Below are positions 1 to 64,000 of a DNA stretch of 64,000 nt, one piece after another. This DNA is from a virus (lineage: Duplodnaviria; Caudoviricetes), in the IMG/VR virus record IMGVR_UViG_3300038530_003085, positions 64,001 through 128,000 of that record, one strand, 5' to 3'. The position numbers and the translations under genes are program-made. The notes beneath the pieces are model-generated. The model saw only the letters and a program-made list of their open reading frames with translations. It did not search any database and was not told where the DNA came from. The stretch's first letter is position 1; every line of letters begins with the position of its first letter.

Positions 1-310
1 CCTCTGCAATTAAATCAAAAATATCTTGAATCTGCTCATCGGAAAAGCCTGAGTCATTTAGAAGTTTTTGCCCAGATTTACGCAACCTATTCGATTTATC
101 TTTTCTCTTTATAGATTGATCTTTAATATCATCAAAAAAACTGACTATTCTATCATCTTGTTCAATGTAACCTGTGATTAAACTACGAAAAAACTGTGCT
201 TGTTTCATACCGTCGGTACGTAAACGCACCAACAGTTGGGCATGCCGATGATCCGTATCAGTAAAAACAATACGCTTATCGTTTCTACCGTATTTTGGCT
301 CGTCGCTCAC
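1..310 (-). CDS. Partial small protein, possible ribbon-helix-helix DNA-binding protein (3' end outside window)
   Basis: Manual translation from GTG at 310, overlapping the upstream stop as GTGA: MSDEPKYGRNDKRIVFTDTDHRHAQLLVRLRTDGMKQAQFFRSLITGYIEQ..., open to position 1. Strand-helix-G-helix pattern resembles RHH. Not in the ORF track. Confidence 0.6.
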   Translation of the reverse strand, partial: MSDEPKYGRNDKRIVFTDTDHRHAQLLVRLRTDGMKQAQFFRSLITGYIEQDDRIVSFFDDIKDQSIKRKDKSNRLRKSGQKLLNDSGFSDEQIQDIFDLIAE

Positions 311-1365
311 CACTTTCTCCCTAATATATGCGTTCTGCTCTCGCCCATTCCGGCCGGCGTCTGCTTGATTAGTTCTGCTACTGACTGAAACTCTGTGAGC
401 GTTCTAGCACCACTGTATGAGAAGCCAGAACGAATACCACGTTCTAAGTCTTGAAGAATCTTGACAACCGATCCTCTATATGGAACCCTTGCAGAAACAC
501 CCTCAAATGAAGAATAATTACCTCGCCAGCTAACTTGTGCCTCTTTTGAGGCCATACCTCGATAAGTTTTCCATCTAGAGCCATTCAAGTCTTCCTGAAT
601 CTTACCGGGACTTTCATCTGTTCCTGCCAAAAGAGAGCCGCACATAACCGCGTCAGCGCCACAGGCGAAAGCTTTTACAATATCACCAGAGTTTCTAATT
701 CCACCATCAGCGATAATTGTCACATTTCGGTCGGTTTGCGAGCAATCTAAGATGGTTTGCAGGCCCGGGACACCATGGCCCGTCTGTACCCTAGTCGAAC
801 AAATAGAACCACCACCAATGTTGCAACGAATAGAGTCAGCACCCCAATCTGCTAGATCGTTGATCCCCTCTAGTGTAGCAACATTACCAGCCATGATATG
901 AACATTACTGCCAGCCGCTTGTCGAATTTTTGTAATAGCCTCCTTCATTAAAATATGGTGGCCGTGAGCAACATCAACACATAAAAATGTTGCACCCGCA
1001 TCAATTAGCGCTGTCGCTCTTTCAACGAAGTCTCCTGAAATACCGACTGCTGCACCAATGTCAATAGACATATTATACTTTGTCTTTGCAATCTCGCAGG
1101 CCATAGATACCATACGGCATTGATTCTCGGCGCTGTTATACCTGTGAATGATAGCGGCGCCGCCAAGACGACCCAGAGAGACAGCCATAGCTGTCTCAGA
1201 AATAGTATCCATAGGTGAGGCCAGAACAGGCAGATTCAAGACCAAGCCGTTGCCTAGATCGGTTGTAGTACTGACCTCGGACCTGCTACGAATATCAGAA
1301 TATTGTGGTACCAAAAGAACATCATCATATGATAACATTTCTCTGGAATTTGTAAGTGGCATCAT
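307..1365 (-). CDS. IMP dehydrogenase/GMP reductase family enzyme without CBS domains
   Basis: LSYDDVLLVP, SPMDT, VDVAHGH, AGNVAT, catalytic loop GGGSICSTR, IIADGGI, YRGMAS. Confidence 0.92.
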   Translation of the reverse strand: MMPLTNSREMLSYDDVLLVPQYSDIRSRSEVSTTTDLGNGLVLNLPVLASPMDTISETAMAVSLGRLGGAAIIHRYNSAENQCRMVSMACEIAKTKYNMSIDIGAAVGISGDFVERATALIDAGATFLCVDVAHGHHILMKEAITKIRQAAGSNVHIMAGNVATLEGINDLADWGADSIRCNIGGGSICSTRVQTGHGVPGLQTILDCSQTDRNVTIIADGGIRNSGDIVKAFACGADAVMCGSLLAGTDESPGKIQEDLNGSRWKTYRGMASKEAQVSWRGNYSSFEGVSARVPYRGSVVKILQDLERGIRSGFSYSGARTLTEFQSVAELIKQTPAGMGESRTHILGRKW

Positions 1366-5848: not shown

Positions 5849-5877
5849 ATTATAATCAGTATTGACGGGGAAGTCAA
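5849..5877 (-). promoter_or_regulatory. Sigma70-type promoter TTGACT-17-TATAAT
   Basis: Minus strand TTGACT(5877-5872), 17 nt, TATAAT(5854-5849), upstream of the 5825 gene. Confidence 0.8.
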
Positions 5878-6860
5878 ATAGTTTTTGGGGATGCAGAGAA
5901 GAAAATTTCATCTACACATTCTGGGGCATTGTCGGTGATAAATTTCATAAAGCCGTCTTCACCATCAGCAAAGAAAGCGTCTGGATTTTTCATACCCCAA
6001 CTTTTAACTTCACGTAGTACATCAACTTTATTAAAGATCAGCTTGTTTACTCCATTCATACGAATAGCTCTAGTAAGTTTCTCAAAGTCAAGCCAGTTAC
6101 ATTGCCGAACGCGGCCGGTCGTTGCACCAAATTCTGAACCTGCTTTTTGAATAGTCTCAAATATTTTGTCTTCTGGCTGAAATTTTTTCATTCCAACATA
6201 AGTTTCGTAAACTTTTGCAACACCCCACACATTACGAATTGATCGAGGATCAATCCCATTATTGATGGCTGCACCAACACCACAGTTGCTACTTGTCACA
6301 AATGGGTAATCACCCCAATCCACATCAAGCCAAAAGCCTTGGGCCCCTTCCATTAGAATAACTGATTCCTCACCACCGTATAATTCTTCTTGCATATCCA
6401 CAATAAAAGGAGCTAGCAGCGGTACGTTCTCGGCACGAACACCTGATCTGTGAAACTTATCTCTATACGCAGGACCATTACCAGACTTAGTGGTGCCAAT
6501 CTTATAGTCTTTAGAATCTTCGGTTACGTGTTCTTTAGTAATAATATGAGCGTTTCTAGCAATCTTAACATTGTTCTCAATGTCAATCCCGTTTTCTGCT
6601 AGATAGTTTAGCTCTTTAAGAAACTTGTCAATGTTAACCACACATCCGGGCCCAATGATCGCCGGGATCCCAAAGAATACCGATGCTGGAATATGGTGGG
6701 TAACAAATTTCTTATCGTTGTGAAAGATAGTGTGGCCCGCGTTACACCCACCGTTAAAGCGTATGCAATGTGTGTAGTCGCCATTCTTAAGTAAATGATG
6801 AGTTACCTTTCCTTTACCCTCATCACCGTGCTGTATGCCCAAAACAATATCTGTAATCAA
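5874..6860 (-). CDS. purA: Adenylosuccinate synthetase (short form)
   Basis: GDEGKGK, GGCNAGHT, IGTTKSGNGP, EGAQG, YPFVTSS, EFGATTGRVR, NKVD; TTG start with GGAGG SD. Confidence 0.93.
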   Translation of the reverse strand: MITDIVLGIQHGDEGKGKVTHHLLKNGDYTHCIRFNGGCNAGHTIFHNDKKFVTHHIPASVFFGIPAIIGPGCVVNIDKFLKELNYLAENGIDIENNVKIARNAHIITKEHVTEDSKDYKIGTTKSGNGPAYRDKFHRSGVRAENVPLLAPFIVDMQEELYGGEESVILMEGAQGFWLDVDWGDYPFVTSSNCGVGAAINNGIDPRSIRNVWGVAKVYETYVGMKKFQPEDKIFETIQKAGSEFGATTGRVRQCNWLDFEKLTRAIRMNGVNKLIFNKVDVLREVKSWGMKNPDAFFADGEDGFMKFITDNAPECVDEIFFSASPKTI

Positions 6861-7616: not shown

Positions 7617-8219
7617 TTAATGAAGTCCAAATTCAACCTTGATAGATACACTAAAGTCTGGGACGTAGCTGTGATTAGCTAAATTATGCTTCAGGCACTC
7701 GTCATGCTCTAAAAACCAATCAGAATGCCCCTTATCGTGCACAATATCGAGAAAATAGTCTGAGTGATGACCGCAGTTTTCCGCCATCATATGATATATC
7801 TTCGTATTAAGACGATCAGTTTCCTCAGCAGATGCTTTAATCTCTTCGACTTTGCCCCAGCCCATAGAACTAACATCATGAATCATAAGCGTCGAATCAG
7901 GATCCATATATCTATGACCTTCAGCACCAAAACTAAACAATATAGCACCGCAAGACATCGCCTTGCCTTGAACTATTGTTGCCACTGGAACTTTGGAGTG
8001 TTTGATATCGGATATCATTGACATCAAACTATAAACTTGACCACCATAACTGTCGATAATAACTGGTATTATGTTCTGGCCTGTGTTTTGAGCCTTCATA
8101 ATTGCTGTTGAAAAAGCTTTTGCTGTGGCTTCGTCGAATTTATTAATCCTAACAATGACAGGTTCATTTTTTAGCTCTGGCTCTTTGAGAAGCGGGCTAT
8201 AATATCTCATTACGTTCAT
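7617..8219 (-). CDS. clpP: ClpP-like serine protease
   Basis: IDSYGGQV, AMSCGA (Ser), MIHD (His), HSDWFL (Asp). Confidence 0.85.
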   Translation of the reverse strand: MNVMRYYSPLLKEPELKNEPVIVRINKFDEATAKAFSTAIMKAQNTGQNIIPVIIDSYGGQVYSLMSMISDIKHSKVPVATIVQGKAMSCGAILFSFGAEGHRYMDPDSTLMIHDVSSMGWGKVEEIKASAEETDRLNTKIYHMMAENCGHHSDYFLDIVHDKGHSDWFLEHDECLKHNLANHSYVPDFSVSIKVEFGLH

Positions 8220-18850: not shown

Positions 18851-19822
18851 TTAGAAACAATCAATTTTGATTCGATTCATATTAGTTTTTAAGTCTTCCC
18901 AGTTAAGTTCACCGAAACCATCTTCCATCATTTTCCGATAGATTTCTAACTGGTTGAAATTACATTCAAAGTTCTCAATTGCATTGTCAATAAACGTCTT
19001 AGACTGAATCGAGAGTTGTGGAGAATACAGTTGCATCATTTTGTAATTATGTTCGATCACTTGACGGCCGTCAATAATATTTGTGAAGAATTTTAGTTTA
19101 CTATCTGCATTTTCACAGAATAATATTACATCATCAATCGTATAATCTTTTTCAGATGCTAAGAATGACAATCTTTTCTTTACTGATGTAATGCCAGCAC
19201 CTTTGATACCCGGTAGATTATCGGATGCATCACCAACAATTGAGCGTGCCAAGGCCATATTAGTGGGGTGTACGCCAAAGGTTTCAATAACACGCTTGGT
19301 ATTCATTACTTCATCAACAGTGGGTCGATAAAGAATTGTATCCTCATCGCAAAGCTGAAGGAAATCTTTGTCATTGGAAATAATAACTTTTTGCCATCCA
19401 TCGTAATGACTCATTTTAGTCACATACGCAATAACATCGTCGGCCTCTACCTCTGGAATCATGATCTGAACAATAGGCATCTGGTTAATGTAGTCAATTG
19501 TCCTACTCTGTTGCCAAATCTTATTTTCTGTTATCTGATCGTCAGTTAGATTATTAACAGAACGGTTAAGGCGGAGTGGCTTACGGCCGGCCTTATAATT
19601 TTTGTCCATACTGCGACGTTTTCTAGATCCATTTGGACCGTCCCAGACAATCACAACTGAGTCTGGCTTTGTCATTCTCACAAGTTTCTGAAGAATCTTA
19701 AACGAGCCCTTAATACCGCCGATAGGATCACCATTGGTTGATAGCGACGGGTCCACAATGTAAGCCCTCAGAAACATATTGAGGGCATCAATAATGATGA
19801 CTCTTTTCTTATCTGTTGTCAT
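18851..19822 (-). CDS. 5'-3' exonuclease/flap endonuclease (Pol I N-terminal/T4 RNase H family)
   Basis: IIDALN, VWDG, YKAGR, EADDVI, SNDKDFLQL, GDASDNLPGIKGAG. Confidence 0.93.
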   Translation of the reverse strand: MTTDKKRVIIIDALNMFLRAYIVDPSLSTNGDPIGGIKGSFKILQKLVRMTKPDSVVIVWDGPNGSRKRRSMDKNYKAGRKPLRLNRSVNNLTDDQITENKIWQQSRTIDYINQMPIVQIMIPEVEADDVIAYVTKMSHYDGWQKVIISNDKDFLQLCDEDTILYRPTVDEVMNTKRVIETFGVHPTNMALARSIVGDASDNLPGIKGAGITSVKKRLSFLASEKDYTIDDVILFCENADSKLKFFTNIIDGRQVIEHNYKMMQLYSPQLSIQSKTFIDNAIENFECNFNQLEIYRKMMEDGFGELNWEDLKTNMNRIKIDCF

Positions 19823-20009: not shown

Positions 20010-20050
20010 AAAAAAACCCTCCGACTGATTTATTATAACCAATCGGAGGG
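20010..20050 (-). terminator. Rho-independent terminator after recA, overlapping a promoter
   Basis: Minus strand CCCTCCGA...TCGGAGGG followed by T7. Confidence 0.7.
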
Positions 20051-20060
20051 CCAGAGTCAA
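20032..20060 (-). promoter_or_regulatory. Sigma70-type promoter TTGACT-17-TATAAT
   Basis: TTGACT(20060-20055), 17 nt, TATAAT(20037-20032). Confidence 0.75.
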
Positions 20061-20069
20061 GTATTTTCT

Positions 20070-21212
20070 TTACTCTTTTACAGGAACTGATATATCTTCT
20101 GGATCTTCGTAAAACTCTTTTGCGTTCCCTTGCCGCTGATCGAACTTCTGCACGATCTCTTCATCCATTACTTTGAGGACACGATTCCTAAACTCCTGAT
20201 CGGAAGTAATGATACTGGTCCACTTGGATGGTTGAAACTTTTTTGTATATCCGTCAGGAGTGGCGAATGTATACCACGCACCTGCGGAAGTTAGGTGTTC
20301 CGAACCTTTGATTGCATCAAACCAAGACTCCTCATCTCGGATCCCAACATCGTCAGTGCCCCACATGATACGGAAAGCACAAGAGCGACCTTGAGTGCCG
20401 AAACGAGACTTCTCAAGCTTCACCTTAACTTCGGAGCCGATACGGAACCCTCGTTCATCTTCAATAAATGCTGACTTAGCTTTTCGGCCAGTCAACCAAA
20501 TACGAAGTGAATAAGCATAGTGCATCGCCTTACCACCGGGGGTGATATAAGGTGTTGTCATTGCTATTTGTCGGGCCATCGGACCCTGTGGAATATTTGT
20601 CTTCAACTGATTGAGGACAATGAATGTTGCTCGTTTATCCGCAATCGGAATAACAAGCTTTGACATTCCCTTCGCGAGAATGCGGGCTTTGACAGCCATT
20701 GATGATTGAGGATTGAAATCGCCCTCAACATCTGAAATTGATGGTGTGAATGCCAACGAATCCCAAATGAACACTAGTTGTTCGTCGGTTGCACCCAATA
20801 GTTCTTCGATAGTCTCAAGCACAAACTCTACGGAGGAAGCTTGCACATACATAAGGCGATCTAAATCGCAGCCTGCTCGCTCCAAAAACATTGGATCGAT
20901 AGCAGACTCAGAATCAAAATAAACGACCATCTTGCCCGCTTTCTGGGCATTTGCAGCAATCTGCGTTGCCATATAAGACTTACCAGTTGCTTCCAATCCT
21001 GCAATCTCGGTAATCTTGCCAACTGGAATACCAGCTACTTGCCCTTTGGCAATGATAGAATCAAGCCATCGTGAACCAGTTGGAATCCACTCTTTTACAG
21101 CAGTTGGGTTATCACCCGTCAGATTGTGTGCTACATTCTGTCCTGCTTTTTTATTAACAATCTTCATCAAATCTTGCATATCTACACGACCTGCTTTTGT
21201 GGCTTTTGCCAT
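20070..21212 (-). CDS. recA: RecA/UvsX recombinase
   Basis: IPTGS, GKITEIAGLEATGKS, YFDSE, IWDSL, LNQ, TPGGKAMHY; start re-called at ATG 21212 with AAGGAG SD. Confidence 0.95.
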   Translation of the reverse strand: MAKATKAGRVDMQDLMKIVNKKAGQNVAHNLTGDNPTAVKEWIPTGSRWLDSIIAKGQVAGIPVGKITEIAGLEATGKSYMATQIAANAQKAGKMVVYFDSESAIDPMFLERAGCDLDRLMYVQASSVEFVLETIEELLGATDEQLVFIWDSLAFTPSISDVEGDFNPQSSMAVKARILAKGMSKLVIPIADKRATFIVLNQLKTNIPQGPMARQIAMTTPYITPGGKAMHYAYSLRIWLTGRKAKSAFIEDERGFRIGSEVKVKLEKSRFGTQGRSCAFRIMWGTDDVGIRDEESWFDAIKGSEHLTSAGAWYTFATPDGYTKKFQPSKWTSIITSDQEFRNRVLKVMDEEIVQKFDQRQGNAKEFYEDPEDISVPVKE

Positions 21213-21282
21213 TCTAACTCCTTTTGAAATAAAGCAGCAGACTTTGACCGGTCTGCCAGCGGTTTCCCACACACTAGACTAT

Positions 21283-22056
21283 TTACTTATTGCTCATAAG
21301 TTCATCAAACGCTCGATCGACATCACTAGTGGAGCTACCTTTTCCATACGCTGTAGTCTCACTGGACAGAGATTCTGCAGATGATGGGTTTACTAATTGT
21401 TCATCGAGAATCGCGTCGATTTCTTCGGGGGTTTTGCGCTCGAAGAGCGAAGAAAAATCCGGCATACGATCGAGGAGGGCAGGGATCGCTTCTGTATCTT
21501 CTAAAAGTGAAGATGTGTTACGCCGCATTTTCATGCTAGTCTGCGGATAAGCTCCGGGGGCTGTTGGCTTGGTATAGGTGAGTGTAATGTCTGTGCCTTC
21601 TCCAATATCGGTGATATCTCCGTATTCTGGATCAAGAATGTAGCCAAGGAGAAGTTCGTAAGCCTTCTTACCATAACCATAAACCTTGATACCTTCACTC
21701 TCGCGTCCTCGAACAACAACTGGCGAGAAGTAGCGGCCGCGAACAAATAGTGACTTTGCAAGCTTCTTAGCTTCCTCATCATTATTTTCTGTGCCATCCC
21801 TCCATACTGCAGAGGCAAAATCACACACAGGGCAGCGTTCTCCAAAGTTACGCTTCGGACACAAAATACCACCCTTGTGCTCGCCTACATTATAATGAAA
21901 GAACATCTCCTTTAGAGGATCACCATCACTTGTTGGCACGATACGAATATCAGTATCTCCCTCATCTGGTTTAAAAAACAGCGAATCGCCGTCTCGTTGC
22001 CCTTCACCACGCAATGTGGCAAGTTTCTTTCGCATTAGTTCCATATTGATTGACAT
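21283..22056 (-). CDS. Single-stranded DNA-binding protein, T4 gp32-like
   Basis: IRIVP, H...CPKRNFGERCPVC Zn motif, YGYGKK, YGDITD..G, acidic DRAFDEL tail; next to recA. Confidence 0.82.
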   Translation of the reverse strand: MSINMELMRKKLATLRGEGQRDGDSLFFKPDEGDTDIRIVPTSDGDPLKEMFFHYNVGEHKGGILCPKRNFGERCPVCDFASAVWRDGTENNDEEAKKLAKSLFVRGRYFSPVVVRGRESEGIKVYGYGKKAYELLLGYILDPEYGDITDIGEGTDITLTYTKPTAPGAYPQTSMKMRRNTSSLLEDTEAIPALLDRMPDFSSLFERKTPEEIDAILDEQLVNPSSAESLSSETTAYGKGSSTSDVDRAFDELMSNK

Positions 22057-22107: not shown

Positions 22108-22136
22108 AATGTATCACTCTTGCTCTAGCTTGTCAA
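22108..22136 (-). promoter_or_regulatory. Sigma70-type promoter TTGACA-17-TACATT (extended TG) for ssb/recA
   Basis: TTGACA(22136-22131), 17 nt, TACATT(22113-22108). Confidence 0.65.
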
Positions 22137-22980
22137 GAGTATTTTTGTTTGATTGTGTCGCATTTGTATGGGCCACGACAAACCCAAAGTCTGGTAATTC
22201 TGTTTCATAAATTGAATATGAAATCTTGCGAAAAGCATTCCTTGGCTTACTTTTCAAGATATCCACAAGCTTTTTATGTAGACCCACTTCCCCCTCAAGT
22301 CGGTCAGAATTTATACACATATAATAGCACAATTCTCGCTCCATGTCAAGGTCGTAAAGCCACATTTCAGAAAGTTTTTTCATATCGAGCATTCCTACTG
22401 TGCGGATTCGACTGATCTCGCTTGGCTTCGACATGTTCCCAATATGCGGCTCAGTGTGCTCAAAATAATTTAAATAATGAACAGAAGAATAGATCGTATC
22501 ATTTAGCGTATCATAGTATGTTTTTAAGTTGATAGAGGAGTGAATTTTTTCAATGCTCTCGTTAGAGAAAATTGTAAAACTACGTAACATACCTGAGCGG
22601 GCGTATTCTTGTAGAACACCGAATACCATATTCTCAACTAAACGCGGTATACCGGTTAACAATTCGGTATCAGGTTTAATATAAAAGACATCAATATCTT
22701 TTTCTTTAATCTGCTCAAGAATCCCAAGACTGTAAATAGAACTTAAAGACGCACCGGTAACAAAGACTTGCACACGATCGTGACAATTACTAAAAAATTT
22801 AGTTAAATCTGGTATGTTCTTCTCATAATCTTCTGGTTTTTCATATGATTTTAATTTATATTTTTGCTTGGTATTTTTTTTAATCTTGTCGTTTAACAAA
22901 TAAACATCATACTGGGGGATGCTTTGAAATTTCGTAGCAATGGCTGATGCGGCATTGCCAATTCCAACAATTGAAATCAT
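22114..22980 (-). CDS. Divergent tubulin/FtsZ-like protein with degenerate GTPase signature
   Basis: ISIVGIGNAASAIA (T1 loop), VFVTGASLSS where GGGTGS is expected, YIKP, IFSNE, LNDTI. Confidence 0.6.
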   Translation of the reverse strand: MISIVGIGNAASAIATKFQSIPQYDVYLLNDKIKKNTKQKYKLKSYEKPEDYEKNIPDLTKFFSNCHDRVQVFVTGASLSSIYSLGILEQIKEKDIDVFYIKPDTELLTGIPRLVENMVFGVLQEYARSGMLRSFTIFSNESIEKIHSSINLKTYYDTLNDTIYSSVHYLNYFEHTEPHIGNMSKPSEISRIRTVGMLDMKKLSEMWLYDLDMERELCYYMCINSDRLEGEVGLHKKLVDILKSKPRNAFRKISYSIYETELPDFGFVVAHTNATQSNKNTLDKLEQE

Positions 22981-24170
22981 AACTTAAGCTCCTCAAGATC
23001 ATAAAAGTTCTTTCCGGCGCTTAAGTTAACTTTAAATGTGTCAAGCTTATTACTCGCAAATACAGCCTTAATATCAGGGACAATATTTTTGTCCTCATCC
23101 GCTAAATCAATCACAATCTCATCGTGAATAATGTGTGATACAAAACTCTTTTTGTCGTCTAGCATTTTTGATATTGCCACAGCACGCTCCAGCACCAAAT
23201 CAGACGTTGTGCTTTGAACAATATAACTTAGCGCCCTTCTTCTGTCAATCTCTATTTCTCTACCAAATATCGTTTTAACACTGCCGTTAGCATAGTATTG
23301 ATCAATTATAGAGTTTCTATCATATAGCTCAGACTGAATTACCTCAGATTCTGGGTTGTACAGCCAGCCAAAAAACATCACCTTTGCATCGTCTCTACTA
23401 ATTGATACCTCAGACGAGCTAAAAATATTAGCCATATTCCAAGCGTGAATATCTTCGGACGGCTGTGGTTGTCCAAGAAGCGATAGAACAGTTCTAACTT
23501 CTGCACCATTATAATCCAAGGATAGGAACCAGTCGTTATGTGGCTTTATAATACGCCTAAAATCCTTTTTCATCGTTAGTATGGGGAAAGACCTAGGGTA
23601 AGTGGTAAGGCGGCCTGTGGCAGTGCCAAACAAGTTATAATCAATATATTTGGATCCTTTTAAAATCTTTTGCAAACCAAGCCTGTTGTTGGTTGTAGTA
23701 AACAAGCTCTTGCAGTCTAAAGTGTCAATATTAAGTTCTTGTTCCCCAATATTGTAAATCAATTTGTGAGCATCATTCAAAAAATCGTAGTTTTCAGGCT
23801 TATCATTCATTGCGAAAACATATTCAGTTATCTTGTTTTTTATTTCACAAAAACTTGCCAATGAATCTTCAGGTATTAAGTCAAATATACAATGTTGTGT
23901 CATGTCTAACTTTGCTATCTGAAATGATTTAAAGAATGCCTCCATCTTTTTCATACTTGAGTTTAGTTCTTTCTCAAATTCTGGTGGACATACATCTCTT
24001 AGTGTTCTCCCTTGACAATAAAGCCACGCATACTCAATGTCATCATCTTTGATAGAACCTGAGTATCTCCAAGTTCTTTTTAAGTCTGTAGGAAAATTAT
24101 CAAAGTGTAGTTTTCCATCTTTGTATATGCCGACACATTCAGACTTGTCGTCAAGTGTTTGAAAATACAT
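22977..24170 (-). CDS. polA: Minimal family A DNA polymerase (Pol I core-like)
   Basis: TATGRLT, motif A LSLDYNGAEVR, motif B RDDAKVMFFGWLY, SYIVQST, motif C IHDEIV; only 397 aa. Confidence 0.8.
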   Translation of the reverse strand: MYFQTLDDKSECVGIYKDGKLHFDNFPTDLKRTWRYSGSIKDDDIEYAWLYCQGRTLRDVCPPEFEKELNSSMKKMEAFFKSFQIAKLDMTQHCIFDLIPEDSLASFCEIKNKITEYVFAMNDKPENYDFLNDAHKLIYNIGEQELNIDTLDCKSLFTTTNNRLGLQKILKGSKYIDYNLFGTATGRLTTYPRSFPILTMKKDFRRIIKPHNDWFLSLDYNGAEVRTVLSLLGQPQPSEDIHAWNMANIFSSSEVSISRDDAKVMFFGWLYNPESEVIQSELYDRNSIIDQYYANGSVKTIFGREIEIDRRRALSYIVQSTTSDLVLERAVAISKMLDDKKSFVSHIIHDEIVIDLADEDKNIVPDIKAVFASNKLDTFKVNLSAGKNFYDLEELKL

Positions 24171-25447
24171 TAATAACCCGATGTATTAGTACTAGTTGTA
24201 GAAGTTTCGCTAGCAAAAGTTTCGCTTGAAGTTTCCTCTAGACCTTCGTTTTTAATTTTAACACGATTAAATAAGTCTGTCAAGGAACCACTGTAATTAT
24301 ATGTTTGGCCCACTATCTTTTCAAAACGATTAAGGGCAAAATTCACACCTCTCACCTCAGAGAGCGATATTGTATCTTTTGTTAATTTAAGTATTTCATA
24401 ATCCTCTAAGCCTGCGTTCTCTTCATTGATCCTAAGTTGAATATAGCTCTCTAAACAATAAGTGTCGCTTACGATTTTTTTAAAGTCGTTAAAACTATAA
24501 TTTAGGGTTTCAATTTCTTTTGTGATGGTTGTGCCATCAGCGCACATTTCTCTCTCTAGATACCTCTCTAATTTCATCAGGTTGTAGGCATCATAAATAA
24601 ATCTTTTATAAAACTCAAGATAGTTGAGATATGCTGGGGTATAATTGTTTGATAAGAGTGAGACCGTATTGTTAAAGCCACACGTTTGTTCATTTTTTGC
24701 ATATTCAATCATTTCATCAGATCCAATGTTTGCAATTAGTCTAAATGGATTAGAAGAATCAACAAGGAAACCATATGATCTACAAGTATTTAGGTAAAAT
24801 TTCCAGTTGGGGCTTTGCTTAAAACTTCTAATTTTTTCTTCGTCGTTAGCATAATCAATATCTGCAATTTCAATTACTAATCCACTGACATGAACTGGGC
24901 AAAATCGACTTTTTATAAATCCTGATAGGGTAATTGGTATTTCTTTAGAAATCGCCTGCAGTGAATCATTGAAAAAGGGGATGAATTCTTGAATGTTGGA
25001 AAATTTTCGACTTCTCTCGGACATAGCATTGGTCAAAAAGCTTAATATATTTGTCAAATGTGCATCGTATACCACACGTGGATCGATATATGCTTTTTTA
25101 ACTTCCAGCACACCAAGAAATTGATCATTTGTATTGAGTTCTCCCGATAATGTCTTGGTTAAAAATTTATTATTTAAATCATTGAACGCTTTGACAACAT
25201 AAGGTGCAGCAACAAAATTGTTGTTATTAGTATTAGTATTATTTAGTCCAGCCAGTGGTACGGCGTTTGAATTATAGACTATTGGAACATATGAGTAATT
25301 AACACGGCCGTACAGGTATTTTTCTGCGACCTCGAAATCAATCAGGTTATTGTACTCGTCTTCGCTAATTTCTAAATTGTAAATTTGACTTTTTTGATAT
25401 AAATCTTTAGCGCCTTCTTCATTGCTGCTTTTAAAAAAGAATGACAT
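24170..25447 (-). CDS. Hypothetical protein
   Basis: 425 aa ORF with GAGG SD; stop overlaps the polA start (TAATG). Confidence 0.75.
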   Translation of the reverse strand: MSFFFKSSNEEGAKDLYQKSQIYNLEISEDEYNNLIDFEVAEKYLYGRVNYSYVPIVYNSNAVPLAGLNNTNTNNNNFVAAPYVVKAFNDLNNKFLTKTLSGELNTNDQFLGVLEVKKAYIDPRVVYDAHLTNILSFLTNAMSERSRKFSNIQEFIPFFNDSLQAISKEIPITLSGFIKSRFCPVHVSGLVIEIADIDYANDEEKIRSFKQSPNWKFYLNTCRSYGFLVDSSNPFRLIANIGSDEMIEYAKNEQTCGFNNTVSLLSNNYTPAYLNYLEFYKRFIYDAYNLMKLERYLEREMCADGTTITKEIETLNYSFNDFKKIVSDTYCLESYIQLRINEENAGLEDYEILKLTKDTISLSEVRGVNFALNRFEKIVGQTYNYSGSLTDLFNRVKIKNEGLEETSSETFASETSTTSTNTSGY

Positions 25448-25465: not shown

Positions 25466-28400
25466 TTACGGTACACCAACTTCATCTTTGGGCGATGCTG
25501 CTGTTTCACCAGTAGGCGCGGCCTTAGATGAGCCTTTGTTTATTGATCTTTTAGACTTACACTTTTTACTTCTAGAGCTATTATTTTCTATTTTACCGCG
25601 CATATTAGAATCTGTGTCATCACCATCAATCTGATGAACCCAGACAGCAGATAGTTTTGTTTCTGCTAAACCTTCGCTGAAATCTGTTTCAGCGCGAGTA
25701 ATCATAAAGTAGCCACCGATTCCATACTTAGAAAGATCATATTTATTGAATGTGGCTGTAGCTTGGTTTGTATCGGGCGCAAAACCTCTAGGGTCTATAA
25801 AAATATAAGTGCCCGGATATGCAGATGGAAATGCAAATGTAGTGACAGATGCATTATACACTTCTCTTAATTGTTGCAATCCATCAAAACCCTCTTGTTC
25901 AAACCTTAACTCCTTTAAACCTTGAGCATCTGTTCTAGTCAAATCAATATTTTTTATAATACCAGAATCTTTTCCTAAAACATAGTGGAATATACCGTTT
26001 TCTTTATCCATAGCGTAATCACCAACTTTTGCATCATGAGGCTGGGAACGACCAGCATAATATATTTGATAATTAGTCTCCCTACTTATGTCACGTTTAG
26101 AGCGACTGTCGTTACGAACTCCCATTGTATTTAAAAGAGAGTCAGAAAAGACGGTTACTGTCCCTTGATAAAACAATTTTAATCTTGCATCTAGTTCCCC
26201 GGTCTTCTTTATTTGATCAAGAATTTTCTCGCTTATTTCGTCATTTTCTGCACCCGGAGGGCGATAAGATGTAACGGCTGTCGAAAATGTTGATATTCTT
26301 TGTTTTACTTCTCCATTAAAACAATCTTCAGAGTTCAAAAAACTTCTAACATAATTCTTTACAATATCAGAAACAAAAGAATTGATATTATATTCTAGTC
26401 TATCACGGGCTACTACTTTTTCAGTCATCCATTCAACAAAGTAAGATACCGATATTGGAATATCAGCCAATGAGCCATTATTATAAGCACCCGGAAATGC
26501 AGGATCACGAAGTTCTACAGGCCCTAACACAACGCGATATCTTTTAAAATTTTCTCTCATAGATTTCAGTATTTTTCTTTCAGCGTTGAGAAATTCCAAA
26601 GGAACATTATCTATTTGATCCAATACTTTTGCGTAACCAGACTCAGATAGTGATTCTTCTATGTTGTCCATAACAACTTCAACTAAATCATACAAATAAA
26701 AGTATGCAATTTGTTCGTCAACATTAGAATTTATTCCAGCACTTGGTGAAACTGCTGGGCCACTGGATGAAACAGGGCCGCGGCCTCTACCTTCTAATCC
26801 AACGAGATCTTCATTACGTTCCCCAAGGGTGGCGTCAGCAACTGCTCTTGCGGCCGATGTGACAACATCTTTAATAGAATCAAGAAGAGAGCCGCCGGAG
26901 GCTTCTGATTCAGGAGGAGAGTTAGTCGATGCTGCTTTAGGTGTATCGGGTGTAGGAGTCGATGGTGTCTCTACTGGAGACGCTGCAATACTAACAATTG
27001 AGTTGAGATCAACAAGTGGATTAAGGACAAAGTTTCCTAACTCGCTATAATTAACGTTGATTAGTTGTATTTTCTCCTTTATCAATAATTTTTCAAGTAT
27101 GCGTCTCAAAGAAGCACGTTGATTTTCGGGTGTAAGTTTATCCTCTTGATCTTTTAAGTCTTTAATTTTTTCAAACAAGCACTCCTGTTCATAGTACTTT
27201 CTCAATACCTTTCTTTTAAATATACCCGAAGTCACTCTTGGGTCAGAGAAAATATTGAAGTATGAAATATCAAAATAATCATCCACGTAAGCTAAATAAT
27301 TAATTTTAAAATTAACACGGCCAGAGTCATCAAATTTAAATTCATGAGTTGTTGGTGTCAGGTTCAGAGTTACAAAACTGTTATAAATTGCATCACTAAT
27401 TTCCTTACGAGTCAAGCCACCGGTGCCTCCAATAATTAAATTGGTTGGCATTTCATAACCAACAATGGCTTTTAGTCTAAATTTTAGTTTATCAAGATTA
27501 TCTATCACAGCGTCTGTGTTTATTTTACTTTGTGGATTAACAGAAGTATATTTTTTCATCTTACTGGAACCAGTTTTAAGGGCTAAATCAGCATATGAAT
27601 AAACTTTACCGTTTTTAGTTCGTCTTTCTTGTAAAATTTCTTCAAAGGAAGATGCAAATATTGACAAATCAGCAGATATACTCTTTTTGACACTAAACGG
27701 GTCAGAACCCTCATAACTAAAACCAAAGTTTTTTATTCCTACTCCGTACCCTCTTCTTGATTGGTTTCTTAGAGCATTTTCAGCAGTTATTTTTGAGCCT
27801 TCACTGTTCAAAAATTCAATTGATGATGGAAAATCAATTTCCACTTCATATTCTTTATCGTTTTCTGGATCTGTATATACTTTGAAAAGACTTATTTTTG
27901 GCTGAAGCTGTGACAAAATGCTTGTTGGTAAATCAAACAAGGCTGCGGTTGATTTTGGCATTGTCATTGTGTTCATAAAACCGAAGGGTATCCCTGAAAT
28001 TGCTAGGGGTCTATTTCTACCAGATTCAGGCCCTTCTTCATAAGGTAAAAGATTGGTAAATACACCATTAGCCTCATCATCTTGTCTAATTTTCATTAAA
28101 TCGAATGCATATCTTTGAAGAAAACACTGTTCTTTGAAAGTGGTGCGAAGTTCAGGATCTAAACCTAAAGTATTAATTAATTCTCTTTGGATCCTTATAA
28201 GGGCCGCTCTTCTTTCATTTAGCTCTGCGAGTTGATCTTCTAATCTGCTAGCAAGAAGTGGGCCAACAAATTCGCCTTTTGCTTGGATGCCAGCTAGATT
28301 TGCTTCTTCTTCAATTGAGGCAGCTTCGGCTTGAATTGCTGCTTGAATTAAGGCTAGCACTTCGACTAACGGGGATATTTGATTTCTTAAATTTAGAAAA

Positions 28401-28951
28401 GCACCGATTGCTAAGTAGAGTTGGTCGAGGGCTTTTTTAAGAGGCTCAATTTTGGCATCAGGATCACCACCGGGGGTATTAAGGGCAGCGATGGCTTGTT
28501 CAATTTTAGATTTCTGTGCGTTTAAACTTATAAAATCGGGTGGGCCATTTAAAATTATATCTATTTCTTTTAATTTATTTTCTGCTTCTGTTAGTCTTGA
28601 AACTAATGTTCCTGCCGTATCTGAAAATACAGTGGCATCAAAATTAGGTGCTAGGCCGGGCGGTTGAAAAGCGTTACGATCTGGTAATTTTACAGTGAAA
28701 GTAGTGCCGCTGGGTGTGTAACCATCATCATTAGGTGAACCTAAGAGATTGTTTTCAGCCAATATTCTCTCTGCTTCAGCGAGGGCATTTTTTGCTTTGC
28801 TGACCTTGTTGGATGTTATTTTTCCATCATCGAATATCAAGCCTATATTGTCTAAGGTGCTTTTATTTTCTTCGAGAACTTTTGCTGTTAAAAGGTCAGA
28901 CGTTGCACCATTATCTTTTAATTCTTTGATTAATTCATCAATTCTACTCAT
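25466..28951 (-). CDS. Large baseplate hub-like protein
   Basis: Located after tape measure/LysM; C-terminal YNASVTTFAFPSAYPGTYIFID...GGYFMITRAETDF typical of hub (gp27/GpD-like) ends. Confidence 0.6.
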   Translation of the reverse strand: MSRIDELIKELKDNGATSDLLTAKVLEENKSTLDNIGLIFDDGKITSNKVSKAKNALAEAERILAENNLLGSPNDDGYTPSGTTFTVKLPDRNAFQPPGLAPNFDATVFSDTAGTLVSRLTEAENKLKEIDIILNGPPDFISLNAQKSKIEQAIAALNTPGGDPDAKIEPLKKALDQLYLAIGAFLNLRNQISPLVEVLALIQAAIQAEAASIEEEANLAGIQAKGEFVGPLLASRLEDQLAELNERRAALIRIQRELINTLGLDPELRTTFKEQCFLQRYAFDLMKIRQDDEANGVFTNLLPYEEGPESGRNRPLAISGIPFGFMNTMTMPKSTAALFDLPTSILSQLQPKISLFKVYTDPENDKEYEVEIDFPSSIEFLNSEGSKITAENALRNQSRRGYGVGIKNFGFSYEGSDPFSVKKSISADLSIFASSFEEILQERRTKNGKVYSYADLALKTGSSKMKKYTSVNPQSKINTDAVIDNLDKLKFRLKAIVGYEMPTNLIIGGTGGLTRKEISDAIYNSFVTLNLTPTTHEFKFDDSGRVNFKINYLAYVDDYFDISYFNIFSDPRVTSGIFKRKVLRKYYEQECLFEKIKDLKDQEDKLTPENQRASLRRILEKLLIKEKIQLINVNYSELGNFVLNPLVDLNSIVSIAASPVETPSTPTPDTPKAASTNSPPESEASGGSLLDSIKDVVTSAARAVADATLGERNEDLVGLEGRGRGPVSSSGPAVSPSAGINSNVDEQIAYFYLYDLVEVVMDNIEESLSESGYAKVLDQIDNVPLEFLNAERKILKSMRENFKRYRVVLGPVELRDPAFPGAYNNGSLADIPISVSYFVEWMTEKVVARDRLEYNINSFVSDIVKNYVRSFLNSEDCFNGEVKQRISTFSTAVTSYRPPGAENDEISEKILDQIKKTGELDARLKLFYQGTVTVFSDSLLNTMGVRNDSRSKRDISRETNYQIYYAGRSQPHDAKVGDYAMDKENGIFHYVLGKDSGIIKNIDLTRTDAQGLKELRFEQEGFDGLQQLREVYNASVTTFAFPSAYPGTYIFIDPRGFAPDTNQATATFNKYDLSKYGIGGYFMITRAETDFSEGLAETKLSAVWVHQIDGDDTDSNMRGKIENNSSRSKKCKSKRSINKGSSKAAPTGETAASPKDEVGVP

Positions 28952-63087: not shown

Positions 63088-64000
63088 CTATGTTGCCAAT
63101 CCATTCATACTTAGTATCGCAATCAAACCGGGCACATTTTTTCTGACATAAACACCAGAGAAAAGTGTCTCACATCGACCGCCGACATAAGCGATTGCCG
63201 ACTCAATATTTTTGCTAACTCTTGGGTCAGCTACCATCTCTTCTGATACAACCAGCACCAATGATCCTGCTGCAGCCTTACCTTTGGGTGGAGGACAGGC
63301 AGAACGATTCATGCAGTTATGGAGGATCACCGATCCAAGCTTTCCAGTATTTGGATCTTTAATCATAGTTGAGCCCATGAAGGCACGACCGTCATTGCCC
63401 AGACAAGTTTCTAAGTCCTTACTATCAAAAGACTGGATCGGTGAATCCTCATTGGAGAGTTTCAAAACTTGGGCTAATGACTTTGCAAATTGTGTGTTGG
63501 CGACCGGATACATACCCAGCATACCAATTCTACCACGAAGTAATCTTGTTGCTCGTTCGTTATCAAGAATGATGTGTGGATGTCTTGACACATCATTCGC
63601 AAGAGTGAGAGCATTTCTAGCTATTGTGGGGTTGAGATTTTCTTGTGCTGTTGGCCAAGATGTGACATACACTACTTGCCCAGAAGCTTGAACAGAGCGA
63701 AGGTACCGCTCAAACACAGGATGAAGAGCAGTGACAGAACTACCGGTCCCACCGCCACCGCCAGCAAGGACGAATAACCAATCAACTTTACCAAGTTTGA
63801 TGCGCAGAGCATCTTCAACAATCGCTCCATTTTGTGTTAATACCTCTTTTCCATATTCTACATTTTTGCCAATACCGTCGGCATCGGGAATGAGGACAAC
63901 GTGATCCTCTTCAACATTCTTAGGAATGTCTTTGCCTGTTGTATTAACAAGCAATGTTTTGTTAAAGCCAAGCTCAATAAAAGCGTTAGCCATTTTGTTG
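63088..64000 (-). CDS. Tubulin/FtsZ-family GTPase (PhuZ/CetZ-like), 5' end outside window
   Basis: DGIGKN, intact signature AGGGGGTGSS, ILDNE, FDSKD T7-like loop; frame stays open beyond 63993 (...NKMANAF follows the T1 loop). Confidence 0.88.
   Translation of the reverse strand, partial: NKMANAFIELGFNKTLLVNTTGKDIPKNVEEDHVVLIPDADGIGKNVEYGKEVLTQNGAIVEDALRIKLGKVDWLFVLAGGGGGTGSSVTALHPVFERYLRSVQASGQVVYVTSWPTAQENLNPTIARNALTLANDVSRHPHIILDNERATRLLRGRIGMLGMYPVANTQFAKSLAQVLKLSNEDSPIQSFDSKDLETCLGNDGRAFMGSTMIKDPNTGKLGSVILHNCMNRSACPPPKGKAAAGSLVLVVSEEMVADPRVSKNIESAIAYVGGRCETLFSGVYVRKNVPGLIAILSMNGLAT

What the first reader, a model, noticed from the sequence alone, without database searches (positions are those of the whole stretch)
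22114..22980. Second, degenerate tubulin/FtsZ paralogue translationally coupled to a mini-polymerase
Seen: this 288-aa protein keeps a T1-like IVGIGNAA start and FtsZ-like spacing (YIKP, IFSNE, LNDTI), but the GGGTG(S/T) signature reads TGASLSS. Its ATG overlaps the polA stop (ATGA) and it lies next to ssb/recA. An intact tubulin-family gene is at 63088-64000. Known: phage tubulins (PhuZ, TubZ) are usually single and best studied in nucleus-forming jumbo phages. Inference: an active plus inactive pair could form a heteropolymer, nucleator or cap linking filaments to replication, or the dead copy could poison host FtsZ.
Basis: partly seen in the sequence, partly recalled or inferred. Interest (0 to 1): 0.75.

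Follow-up and report, generated by a model that had tools for sequence, protein, structure and literature searches.

The report
Pseudo-tubulin gene in phage replication module
A 288-residue gene of an uncultured 187-kb marine myovirus encodes a complete tubulin/FtsZ fold with eroded GTPase motifs. It lies between a mini DNA polymerase and the SSB gene in every relative found, and it accompanies a normal FtsZ-like tubulin, which suggests an undescribed two-tubulin system near phage DNA replication.

Summary
The ORF at 22114-22980 (-) is a real gene under strong purifying selection (dN/dS about 0.05-0.08). Its AlphaFold2 model (pLDDT 95.9) matches CetZ, TubZ, FtsZ and tubulin over the whole length (Z 22-24). 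Pfam, PHROGs and NCBIfam do not recognise it.

It founds a large family (at least 500 clusters at 50% identity) seen only in uncultured marine phage contigs. The motif decay is family-wide and old, not a recent death:
- the T3 region is shortened;
- the T4 loop is glycine-poor and different in all 116 aligned members;
- the T7 loop is the least conserved part of the globular protein;
- T1 GxGxxG, the T6 and H7 Asn residues and an invariant-Gln patch (consensus QEYARSG) are kept.

The order mini-PolA, this gene, gp32-type SSB, RecA, FEN holds in all loci with enough flank, down to 29% identity. The ATGA overlap holds only in the close clade. A canonical FtsZ/CetZ-like tubulin (378 aa, runs past the window end) is present in 12 of 12 informative contigs.

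First readers of this scan flagged the same family on other genomes. My best reading is a non-hydrolysing partner of the phage tubulin (about 0.35).

The parts
22114..22980 (-). 288-aa divergent tubulin/FtsZ-fold protein (pseudo-GTPase), the finding itself
   Evidence: ORF. AF2 pLDDT 95.9. Foldseek and VIA matches to CetZ, TubZ, FtsZ and tubulin, Z 22-24. Family of at least 500 clusters at 50% identity. dN/dS 0.05-0.08.
22977..22994 (-). Junction with the upstream gene: GAGGAG ribosome-binding site (22994-22989) and the ATGA stop/start overlap (22980-22977)
   Evidence: Read directly from the sequence. The -4 overlap is kept in all close-clade loci with upstream flank but not in distant clades.
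22977..24170 (-). 397-aa family-A DNA polymerase, polymerase domain only (mini-PolA), always immediately upstream
   Evidence: Pfam DNA_pol_A 1.4e-13 and PHROG 17. Invariant D219/N221, R259/K263 and H349/D350 in 42 homologues. Upstream of the target in every locus with flank.
21283..22056 (-). gp32-type single-strand DNA-binding protein, always downstream
   Evidence: Pfam gp32 1.4e-14 and PHROG 1192 4.5e-25. Synteny.
20070..21272 (-). RecA/UvsX-like recombinase
   Evidence: Pfam RecA 1.3e-35 and PHROG 97 2.5e-61.
18851..19822 (-). 5'-3' exonuclease (FEN) of the same module
   Evidence: ORF. Its orthologues in relatives carry Pfam 5_3_exonuc_N.
63088..64000 (-). C-terminal 303 codons of the canonical FtsZ/CetZ-like tubulin. 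The full gene is 378 aa and runs 224 nt beyond the window end.
   Evidence: Pfam Tubulin over the cut-off at full length. PDB profile hit to CetZ 3zid at 1.8e-10. AF2 plus Foldseek, CetZ/FtsZ at E 1e-20. Present in 12 of 12 informative related contigs.

Best explanation
The ORF is a functional gene for a very divergent member of the tubulin/FtsZ superfamily. It has the complete two-domain fold. It defines a large unannotated family found so far only in one lineage of uncultured marine myoviruses that replicate with DnaE.

The family has lost the parts that make tubulins GTP-driven polymers. The T3/H3 region is about 11 residues shorter and lacks a glycine motif. The T4 loop is glycine-poor and hypervariable. 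The T7 loop has no conserved catalytic acid. The family keeps a T1 GxGxxG, the T6 and H7 asparagines and an almost invariant family-specific patch (consensus QEYARSG at the end of helix H5).

The gene is a fixed part of the replication/recombination module (mini-PolA, this gene, gp32 SSB, RecA, FEN). It co-occurs with a canonical, slowly evolving FtsZ/CetZ-like tubulin encoded 20-40 kb away.

Most likely mechanism (inferred, not shown): it is a non-hydrolysing 'pseudo-tubulin' that acts as a structural partner of the canonical phage tubulin filament, as a cap, nucleator or adaptor, and through its conserved non-GTPase patch ties that filament to replicating phage DNA or the replisome.

My odds: tubulin-superfamily identity above 0.95; loss of canonical GTPase about 0.7; partnership with the canonical tubulin about 0.35.
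For: Fold: pLDDT 95.9. The listed Foldseek PDB matches are all FtsZ/TubZ/CetZ, at E about 5e-12 and TM 0.62-0.71. VIA Z is 22-24 over 267-285 of 288 residues. The top viral structure matches are phage FtsZ, PhuZ and tubulin. The nearest named ESM clusters carry PF00091.

Functional gene: 1137 homologues among 90% clusters and 500 clusters at 50% identity, all about 275-290 aa. dN/dS is 0.05-0.08.

Motif state: hhalign to the canonical copy (88%, E 2.8e-6) aligns T1, T4, T6 and H7 and places an 8-residue gap where the T3 loop lies. Between S3 and S4 the target model has 26 residues against 37 in the canonical model. All 116 members have a different T4 string, with 1-4 Gly and never Gly at positions 79 or 80. 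The T7-equivalent loop has the highest entropy of the globular part (2.86 against a mean of 2.35). QEYARSG has the lowest (0.69).

Context: the order PolA, target, SSB is kept in all loci with flank, down to 29% identity.

Co-occurrence with the canonical tubulin: 3 of 3 and 2 of 2 contigs that reach far enough from the target side. From the tubulin side 7 of 7, including 3 of 3 records at least 90% complete.
Against: No physical interaction was tested, so the partnership rests on fold logic and co-occurrence. Both genes are simply core genes of one lineage, so their co-occurrence is not independent evidence. The two proteins evolve at very different rates between G000 and G016: 35.5% identity (rank 14 of 61 orthologue pairs from the lowest) against 61.7% (rank 57 of 61). 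That is not what an obligate alpha/beta-like pair would suggest. The genes lie 20-40 kb apart rather than adjacent. Some members keep a glycine-rich T4 (for example GGGGKISGA), so nucleotide binding and even slow hydrolysis cannot be excluded.
Confidence: 0.36

Rival explanations
1. Replisome accessory subunit. The tubulin-fold protein binds the exonuclease-less mini-PolA (or gp32 SSB) as a scaffold or regulatory subunit and has no cytoskeletal role.
For: PolA lies immediately upstream in every locus with flank. The junction is an ATGA or 1-nt overlap, or a 1-nt gap, in three separate clades. The two evolve at similar rates between G000 and G016 (35.5% and 38.9%). The conserved patch lies outside the GTPase loops.
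Against: Overlaps are common in this genome (35 of 185 junctions). In several clades 24-1950 bp, enough for inserted small ORFs, separate the two genes. The whole module is syntenic, so adjacency is not specific. No PolA fusion was found among longer proteins (weak evidence). In the close clade the target is better conserved than PolA (85-88% against 73-78%).
Confidence: 0.2
2. Autonomous filament former of the TubZ/RepX kind. It still binds a nucleotide and self-assembles, with slow or no hydrolysis, to organise or segregate replicating phage DNA independently of the second tubulin.
For: The top structural matches include TubZ/RepX, which act on plasmid and phage DNA according to the depositors' molecule names and established literature. 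T1 GxGxxG, a Ser/Thr at the T4 position aligned to the signature Thr, and the T6 and H7 Asn are retained. Some members have a Gly-rich T4.
Against: T7, which forms the longitudinal contact and catalytic site in all known polymers of the family, is the least conserved segment. No TubR- or TubY-like neighbour is present. There is no long C-terminal helix or tail; the model ends in a short helix at 279-287 with low confidence. The protein is mildly acidic (median pI 5.7), so it is not an obvious DNA binder.
Confidence: 0.15
3. Host cell-division antagonist. It is a T7-less FtsZ mimic that caps host FtsZ protofilaments and blocks septation during infection.
For: It has an FtsZ-like fold without a conserved T7 acid. 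From my own knowledge, not checked here, FtsZ mutants altered on the T7 (bottom) face are reported to be dominant-negative. It evolves faster than the median orthologue, as host-interacting proteins often do. Sigma-70-like promoter matches lie upstream of PolA (consensus matches only, not enriched over shuffles).
Against: Structure-based identity to FtsZ chains is 7-15%, so interface mimicry is not evident. Its fixed place inside the replication module is not explained by this reading. The host is unknown, so nothing could be tested.
Confidence: 0.12
4. It is not cytoskeletal at all. It is a nucleotide- or dinucleotide-binding regulator or enzyme that re-uses the tubulin scaffold, for example to sense nucleotide pools for replication.
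For: The GxGxxG plus an acidic or amide residue at the end of strand 2 resembles a classical Rossmann fingerprint. Four members hit TrkA_N (best E 3.9e-6) and the family profile hits KtrA at E 0.0037. The phage carries purine-interconversion genes.
Against: These hits cover only the first 90 or so residues, whereas the tubulin-family matches cover both domains. No conserved catalytic-looking constellation was identified in the pocket. The phosphate loop T4 is hypervariable.
Confidence: 0.1

Closest known systems
CetZ and FtsZ (e.g. PDB 3zid, 1w5a, 2r6r)
   Same: It has the full two-domain fold: a Rossmann-like N-domain, the core helix H7 and the C-terminal domain. VIA Z is 22-24 with 267-270 aligned residues. 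The order of T1, T4, T6 and H7 is preserved.
   Different: It gives no Pfam Tubulin or TIGR00065 hit. The T3 region is shortened, T4 is not GGGTG[ST]G and there is no conserved T7 acid. It is about 20-30 residues shorter than an FtsZ core, has no C-terminal linker or peptide, and is encoded in a phage replication module.
TubZ/RepX of Bacillus plasmids and Clostridium phage c-st (PDB 2xka, 4ei7)
   Same: It is a tubulin-fold protein on a mobile element linked to DNA replication or segregation. These are among the best structural matches (Foldseek E 5e-12; Z 22.8-23.1).
   Different: From established literature, TubZ keeps the GTPase signature, forms treadmilling filaments, has a long C-terminal helix and works with the adjacent TubR/tubC (and TubY). 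Here the neighbours are PolA and gp32 SSB, the signature is lost and the C-terminus is short.
PhuZ of nucleus-forming jumbo phages
   Same: It is a phage-encoded member of the tubulin superfamily. PhuZ and other phage tubulins appear among the viral structure matches at TM 0.45-0.56.
   Different: PhuZ is a canonical GTPase, usually the only tubulin of its phage, and is tied to chimallin-type phages (PMC9123017, PMC12625630). This protein is a pseudo-GTPase and the second tubulin-fold gene of a 187-kb myovirus with DnaE. Whether this phage has chimallin was not tested.
Paired or specialised tubulins: alpha/beta-tubulin, BtubA/B, gamma-tubulin
   Same: As a 'works like' lead only: two tubulin-fold genes are kept together in one genome, and one of them has reduced catalytic capacity. 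This recalls the non-hydrolysing N-site of alpha-tubulin or the capping and nucleating role of gamma-tubulin (established knowledge).
   Different: Those proteins all keep the GTP-binding signature and are 30-40% identical to each other. Here the pair shares about 15% identity, the genes are 20-40 kb apart, and no interaction has been shown.

Membership tests
Tubulin/FtsZ superfamily (structural) | Two-domain fold: nucleotide-binding Rossmann-like domain, core helix H7 and C-terminal domain | tested here: met
   AF2 pLDDT 95.9. The listed Foldseek PDB matches are all FtsZ, TubZ or CetZ. VIA Z is 22-24 across model residues 1-288.
Tubulin/FtsZ superfamily (sequence, Pfam PF00091) | Score above the Pfam Tubulin gathering threshold (33 bits) | tested here: not met
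   The window protein gives no hit. Only 2 of 116 family members give weak hits, best E 4.2e-4. The canonical copy of the same phage scores 35.3 bits.
Tubulin/FtsZ GTPases | T1 glycine-rich loop | tested here: met
   It is present in a relaxed form. The family consensus is G-L-G-x-A-G-C (G8 in 115 of 116, G6 in 95, G11 in 90). The window copy reads GIGNAAS.
Tubulin/FtsZ GTPases | T4 signature GGGTG[ST]G | tested here: not met
   The window copy reads G-A-S-L-S-S-I at positions 76-82. The family has 1-4 Gly in these 7 positions and never Gly at positions 79 or 80. All 116 members have a different string. Only G76 and a Ser/Thr at 81 are well kept.
Tubulin/FtsZ GTPases | T3 gamma-phosphate sensor loop (GxGxxxxxG) | tested here: not met
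   hhalign places an 8-residue gap at the T3 loop of the canonical copy. The segment from S3 to S4 is 26 residues against 37. A family-specific PExYE motif sits there instead.
Tubulin/FtsZ GTPases | T7 loop with a conserved catalytic Asp/Glu (NxDxx[DE]) | tested here: not met
   Loop 175-190 has the highest entropy of the globular part. The best acidic column reaches 53% D/E. The canonical copy has invariant D267 and D270.
Tubulin/FtsZ GTPases | GTP binding, GTP hydrolysis and head-to-tail polymerisation | not testable with these tools
   This needs biochemistry.
FtsZ proper | NCBIfam TIGR00065 match and a C-terminal linker plus conserved peptide | tested here: not met
   There is no NCBIfam hit at E <= 1. 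The protein ends 12 residues after the last strand.
TubZ-type partition systems | Adjacent TubR-type DNA-binding adaptor (and TubY) with a centromere | tested here: not met
   The neighbours are the mini-PolA and gp32 SSB in this window and in more than 100 related loci. Centromere repeats were not searched for.
PhuZ of nucleus-forming phages | Co-occurrence with chimallin and a multisubunit RNA polymerase; acidic C-terminal tail | not tested
   Chimallin and RNAP were not searched in the genome. The replication genes found (DnaE, DnaB, mini-PolA) differ from the divergent family-B polymerase described for PhiKZ-like marine phages (PMC9123017).

The most novel reading that the evidence does not exclude
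An abundant lineage of marine myoviruses runs a two-component tubulin system. A canonical FtsZ/CetZ-like GTPase forms the filament. A conserved pseudo-GTPase tubulin-fold partner, encoded inside the replication module, caps, nucleates or anchors that filament and couples it to the replisome or to replicating DNA. That would be a viral functional analogue of gamma-tubulin or of the catalytically silent half of the alpha/beta pair, evolved independently.
Probability: 0.25. Interest if true: 0.85.

Novelty: new variant of a known kind. Interest (0 to 1): 0.62.

Why it matters
Known phage and plasmid tubulins (PhuZ, TubZ) are active GTPases that act as single polymers. I know of no described catalytically eroded tubulin-fold protein that is strongly conserved, tied to a replication module and always paired with a canonical tubulin, and none turned up in the literature I could search. 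The family is large (at least 500 clusters at 50% identity), common in Tara and other ocean metagenomes, and invisible to Pfam, PHROGs and NCBIfam. At the least, it adds a deep new branch to the tubulin/FtsZ superfamily and an annotation for over a thousand 'hypothetical' viral proteins. If the pairing is functional, it gives a simple bacterial-virus model for how tubulin paralogues divide labour between a catalytic and a structural subunit, and a first hint of a cytoskeleton in DnaE-type marine phages outside the nucleus-forming group.

Tried and rejected
Searches and tools that gave nothing:
No interaction test exists for tubulin, PolA or self-association.
- Pfam, PHROGs and NCBIfam give no significant hit for the target.
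- A family profile against PDB sequences gave only weak Rossmann-type hits (KtrA, E 0.0037).
- BLASTP between the two tubulin-fold proteins of the phage gave nothing.
- tblastn against 50,697 cultured and GenBank phage records gave no match for the target. The canonical tubulin matched only Bacillus phage G, weakly. DnaE, RecA and PolA matched at 24-32% identity, so there is no cultured relative.
- A search for fused or longer forms found none (weak evidence).
- A scan of GTDB species genomes with the window protein found no relative. This method detects only close relatives.
- Five literature searches and four papers read gave no description of this family or of a tubulin in DnaE-type marine phages. 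The library is incomplete.

Readings rejected:
- A decaying pseudogene is rejected because of the intact ORFs across the family and the low dN/dS.
- A plain Rossmann NAD-binding enzyme is rejected because both domains match tubulins.
- The ATGA overlap is down-weighted as evidence for a PolA complex.

Not resolved: whether the family arose by duplication of the phage's own tubulin. CetZ is the top match for both proteins, but the differences between families are within noise.

Full report
**What is in the sequence.** The window is bases 64001-128000 of a 187,393-bp IMG/VR virus record that CheckV rates as complete. About 194 of 204 ORFs lie on the minus strand. The ORF at 22114-22980 (-) encodes 288 aa beginning MISIVGIGNAAS. 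Its ATG overlaps the stop of the upstream 397-aa gene as ATGA, with GAGGAG 8 nt upstream. The upstream gene is a family-A polymerase reduced to the polymerase domain (Pfam DNA_pol_A 1.4e-13). Its motif A, B and C residues are invariant in 42 homologues. Downstream lie a gp32-type SSB, a RecA/UvsX recombinase and a 5'-3' exonuclease. Further along the module are a DnaB helicase, a class II ribonucleotide reductase and a full DnaE. Tail sheath, tail tube and a T4-type baseplate protein show that the phage is a myovirus. No cultured phage is close: the target has no tblastn match at all, and RecA, DnaE and PolA match at only 24-32% identity.

**The fold.** Pfam, PHROGs and NCBIfam do not recognise the protein. 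With an alignment of 116 diverse homologues (A1), AlphaFold2 gives a very confident model (mean pLDDT 95.9, pTM 0.92). The listed Foldseek matches against the PDB (top 50 of at least 500 at E <= 0.001) are all FtsZ, TubZ or CetZ, with best E 5e-12 and TM 0.62-0.71. VIA-align gives Z 24.0 to CetZ 3zid_B (rmsd 3.6, 267 aligned), 23.1 to TubZ and about 22 to FtsZ and eukaryotic tubulins, spanning residues 1-288. The best matches among predicted viral structures are phage FtsZ, PhuZ and tubulin. The nearest named ESM Atlas clusters carry PF00091.

**The family.**
- There are 1137 homologues among 90% clusters and 500 clusters at 50% identity.
- Nearly all are 275-290 aa, come from marine metagenomes (many from Tara) and are unnamed.
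- 594 stretches in IMG/VR encode a relative. The ESM clusters are 100% viral.
- No longer fused form was found (weak evidence). No close relative turned up in GTDB genomes.
- dN/dS against three relatives at 85-88% identity is 0.05-0.08, although dS is near saturation.
- This is a constrained, functional gene and not a decaying copy.

**State of the GTPase machinery.** Profile-profile alignment with the phage's canonical tubulin family (A2) gives 88% probability and E 2.8e-6 over residues 3-185. It fixes the register of the loops as follows.
- T1 survives as GxGxxG (G8 in 115 of 116 members).
- The T3 loop of the canonical protein falls in an 8-residue gap. The S3-S4 segment is 26 residues against 37. 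A family-specific PExYE motif lies there.
- T4 aligns G76-A-S-L-S-S-I82 to G-G-G-G-G-T-G. Across the family G76 and a Ser/Thr at position 81 are kept. Positions 79 and 80 are never Gly. Every one of the 116 members has a different string, and the Gly count is 1-4.
- The window's clade is at the poorest end of that range, while a few members read GGGGKISGA.
- The T6 Asn (N140) and the H7 Asn (N158) are conserved.
- The T7-equivalent loop (175-190) is the most variable part of the globular protein (entropy 2.86 against a mean of 2.35). No acidic column exceeds 53%.
- The best conserved element is the end of helix H5, consensus QEYARSG (entropy 0.69; Q124 invariant, R128 and S129 at 90% or more). 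This lies outside the classical nucleotide loops. By the topology of the Rossmann-like domain it should sit opposite the pocket. That placement is an inference, because I could not inspect the coordinates.

I read this pattern as follows: base and ribose contacts are possibly kept, gamma-phosphate sensing and trans-activation of hydrolysis are lost, and a new conserved interaction surface has been gained.

**The second tubulin.** The gene at 63088 runs past the window end. The complete ORF (genome 127088-128224, 378 aa) has canonical T1, T4 and T7 motifs. It passes the Pfam Tubulin cut-off. It hits CetZ and FtsZ in the PDB by profile (1.8e-10) and by structure (E 1e-20, 20-23% identity). JGI names it 'cell division GTPase FtsZ'. 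It has a disordered, very acidic N-terminal extension of 60 residues (net charge -17) with conserved positions, and no C-terminal tail.

**Context and co-occurrence.**
- In more than 100 related loci the order mini-PolA, target, SSB is kept wherever flank is available, including relatives only 29-39% identical.
- The 4-nt overlap is universal in the close clade (60-88% identity). Elsewhere the gap is -1, +1, +24 to +26, or 299-1950 bp, the longer gaps being large enough for inserted small ORFs.
- In this genome 35 of 185 same-strand junctions overlap by 4 or 1 nt. Coupling is therefore weak evidence for a specific complex.
- For the canonical tubulin, of 15 IMG/VR contigs carrying the target, exactly the three that extend about 40 kb upstream contain it.
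- Of five contigs from distant clades, the two with the longest upstream sequence (37 and 111 kb) contain it, 22-31 kb away; the other three have only 19-24 kb upstream and are borderline.
- Starting from the tubulin, 7 of 17 long contigs contain the target. By my reading of the coordinates, the ten misses all have less than 35 kb downstream. All three records at least 90% complete have both genes.
- That makes 12 of 12 informative contigs. All belong to one lineage, so this shows a shared core gene set and not independent association.
- Between G000 and the distant G016, the target is 35.5% identical (rank 14 of 61 orthologue pairs from the lowest) and PolA 38.9%. The canonical tubulin is 61.7% (rank 57) and DnaE 62.7%. 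The median is 42%.

**Interpretation.** What is shown:
- a complete tubulin/FtsZ fold;
- family-wide erosion of T3, T4 and T7;
- strong purifying selection;
- fixed membership of the replication/recombination module;
- constant company of a canonical tubulin.

What is inferred is that the protein does not act as a GTP-hydrolysing homopolymer and instead works through its conserved non-GTPase patch and its tubulin-type faces. I favour a role as a non-catalytic partner (cap, nucleator or adaptor) of the canonical filament that links it to replicating DNA, at about 0.35. The rate mismatch and the distance between the genes count against an obligate heterodimer. The rivals are:
- a replisome accessory protein bound to mini-PolA or SSB (0.2);
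- an autonomous TubZ/RepX-like polymer (0.15);
- a host FtsZ cap (0.12);
- a non-cytoskeletal nucleotide-binding regulator (0.1).

**Comparison and novelty.** At the level of structure the protein is about equally distant from CetZ, TubZ, FtsZ and tubulin (Z 22-24). It fails the sequence definitions of each (see the membership table). I found no paper describing it, and none describing a tubulin in marine phages that carry DnaE. Published surveys attribute tubulin only to PhiKZ-like marine jumbo phages (PMC9123017; also PMC7824862 and PMC12625630). First readers of this scan noted the same family, with T4 strings such as GSSHSSS and the same coupling to a mini-polymerase, on at least two other genomes. 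Those notes were unchecked, and my family-level results are consistent with them. I class it as a new variant of a known kind: a deep, catalytically degenerate branch of the tubulin/FtsZ superfamily with an unusual genomic setting.

Noticed in passing
window 63088-64000 and beyond (genome 127088-128224; locus L087:1036-2172, minus strand): The canonical phage tubulin carries a disordered, very acidic 60-residue N-terminal extension (net charge -17) with invariant positions (D36, F37, G44, L55, N58). It has no C-terminal tail, the reverse of FtsZ, tubulin and PhuZ, whose partner-binding tails are C-terminal. The core alone has pI 8.4.
   Followed up: partly
G002:C1:74952-75113 and G003:C1:3-170 (loci L090, L089): Two independent IMG/VR contigs end inside the canonical tubulin gene at nearly the same codon (residue 323-325 of 378). 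This suggests a recurrent assembly breakpoint, such as a repeat or a hypervariable stretch, at that spot.
   Followed up: no
window 307-1365 and 5874-6860: There is an IMPDH/GMP-reductase-family gene (352 aa, a length that fits GuaC) and an adenylosuccinate synthetase. Together they could shift guanine nucleotides towards adenine nucleotides, which is notable in a phage that also encodes a GTP-dependent tubulin.
   Followed up: no
whole genome G000 (window included): Strand bias is extreme: about 194 of 204 ORFs of 70 aa or more are on the minus strand. The relative G016 shows 139 of 142.
   Followed up: partly
window 24170-25447 and 25466-28951: The two genes just upstream of the mini-PolA (425 aa with a Ser/Thr-rich C-terminus, and 1161 aa) have no Pfam or PHROG match. 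In G016 the counterpart of the 425-aa gene is a 1416-aa protein. The replication module therefore directly abuts what look like large structural genes, and PolA's own start overlaps the stop of the 425-aa gene by 1 nt.
   Followed up: no
loci L093, L101, L102, L103, L108 (between PolA and the target gene): In distant clades 299-1950 bp separate PolA from the target, enough for small ORFs. This junction appears to be an insertion hot spot while the flanking order stays fixed.
   Followed up: no
window 20015-20052 (minus strand): A strong terminator-like hairpin (16-bp stem followed by a T run) lies just after recA and overlaps a promoter-like TTGACT-17-TATAAT match. It may mark a transcription unit boundary inside the replication module.
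   Followed up: no
window 7617-8219: A ClpP-family protease gene sits next to DnaE, far from the head genes. It could be the prohead protease or a separate proteolytic function.
   Followed up: no
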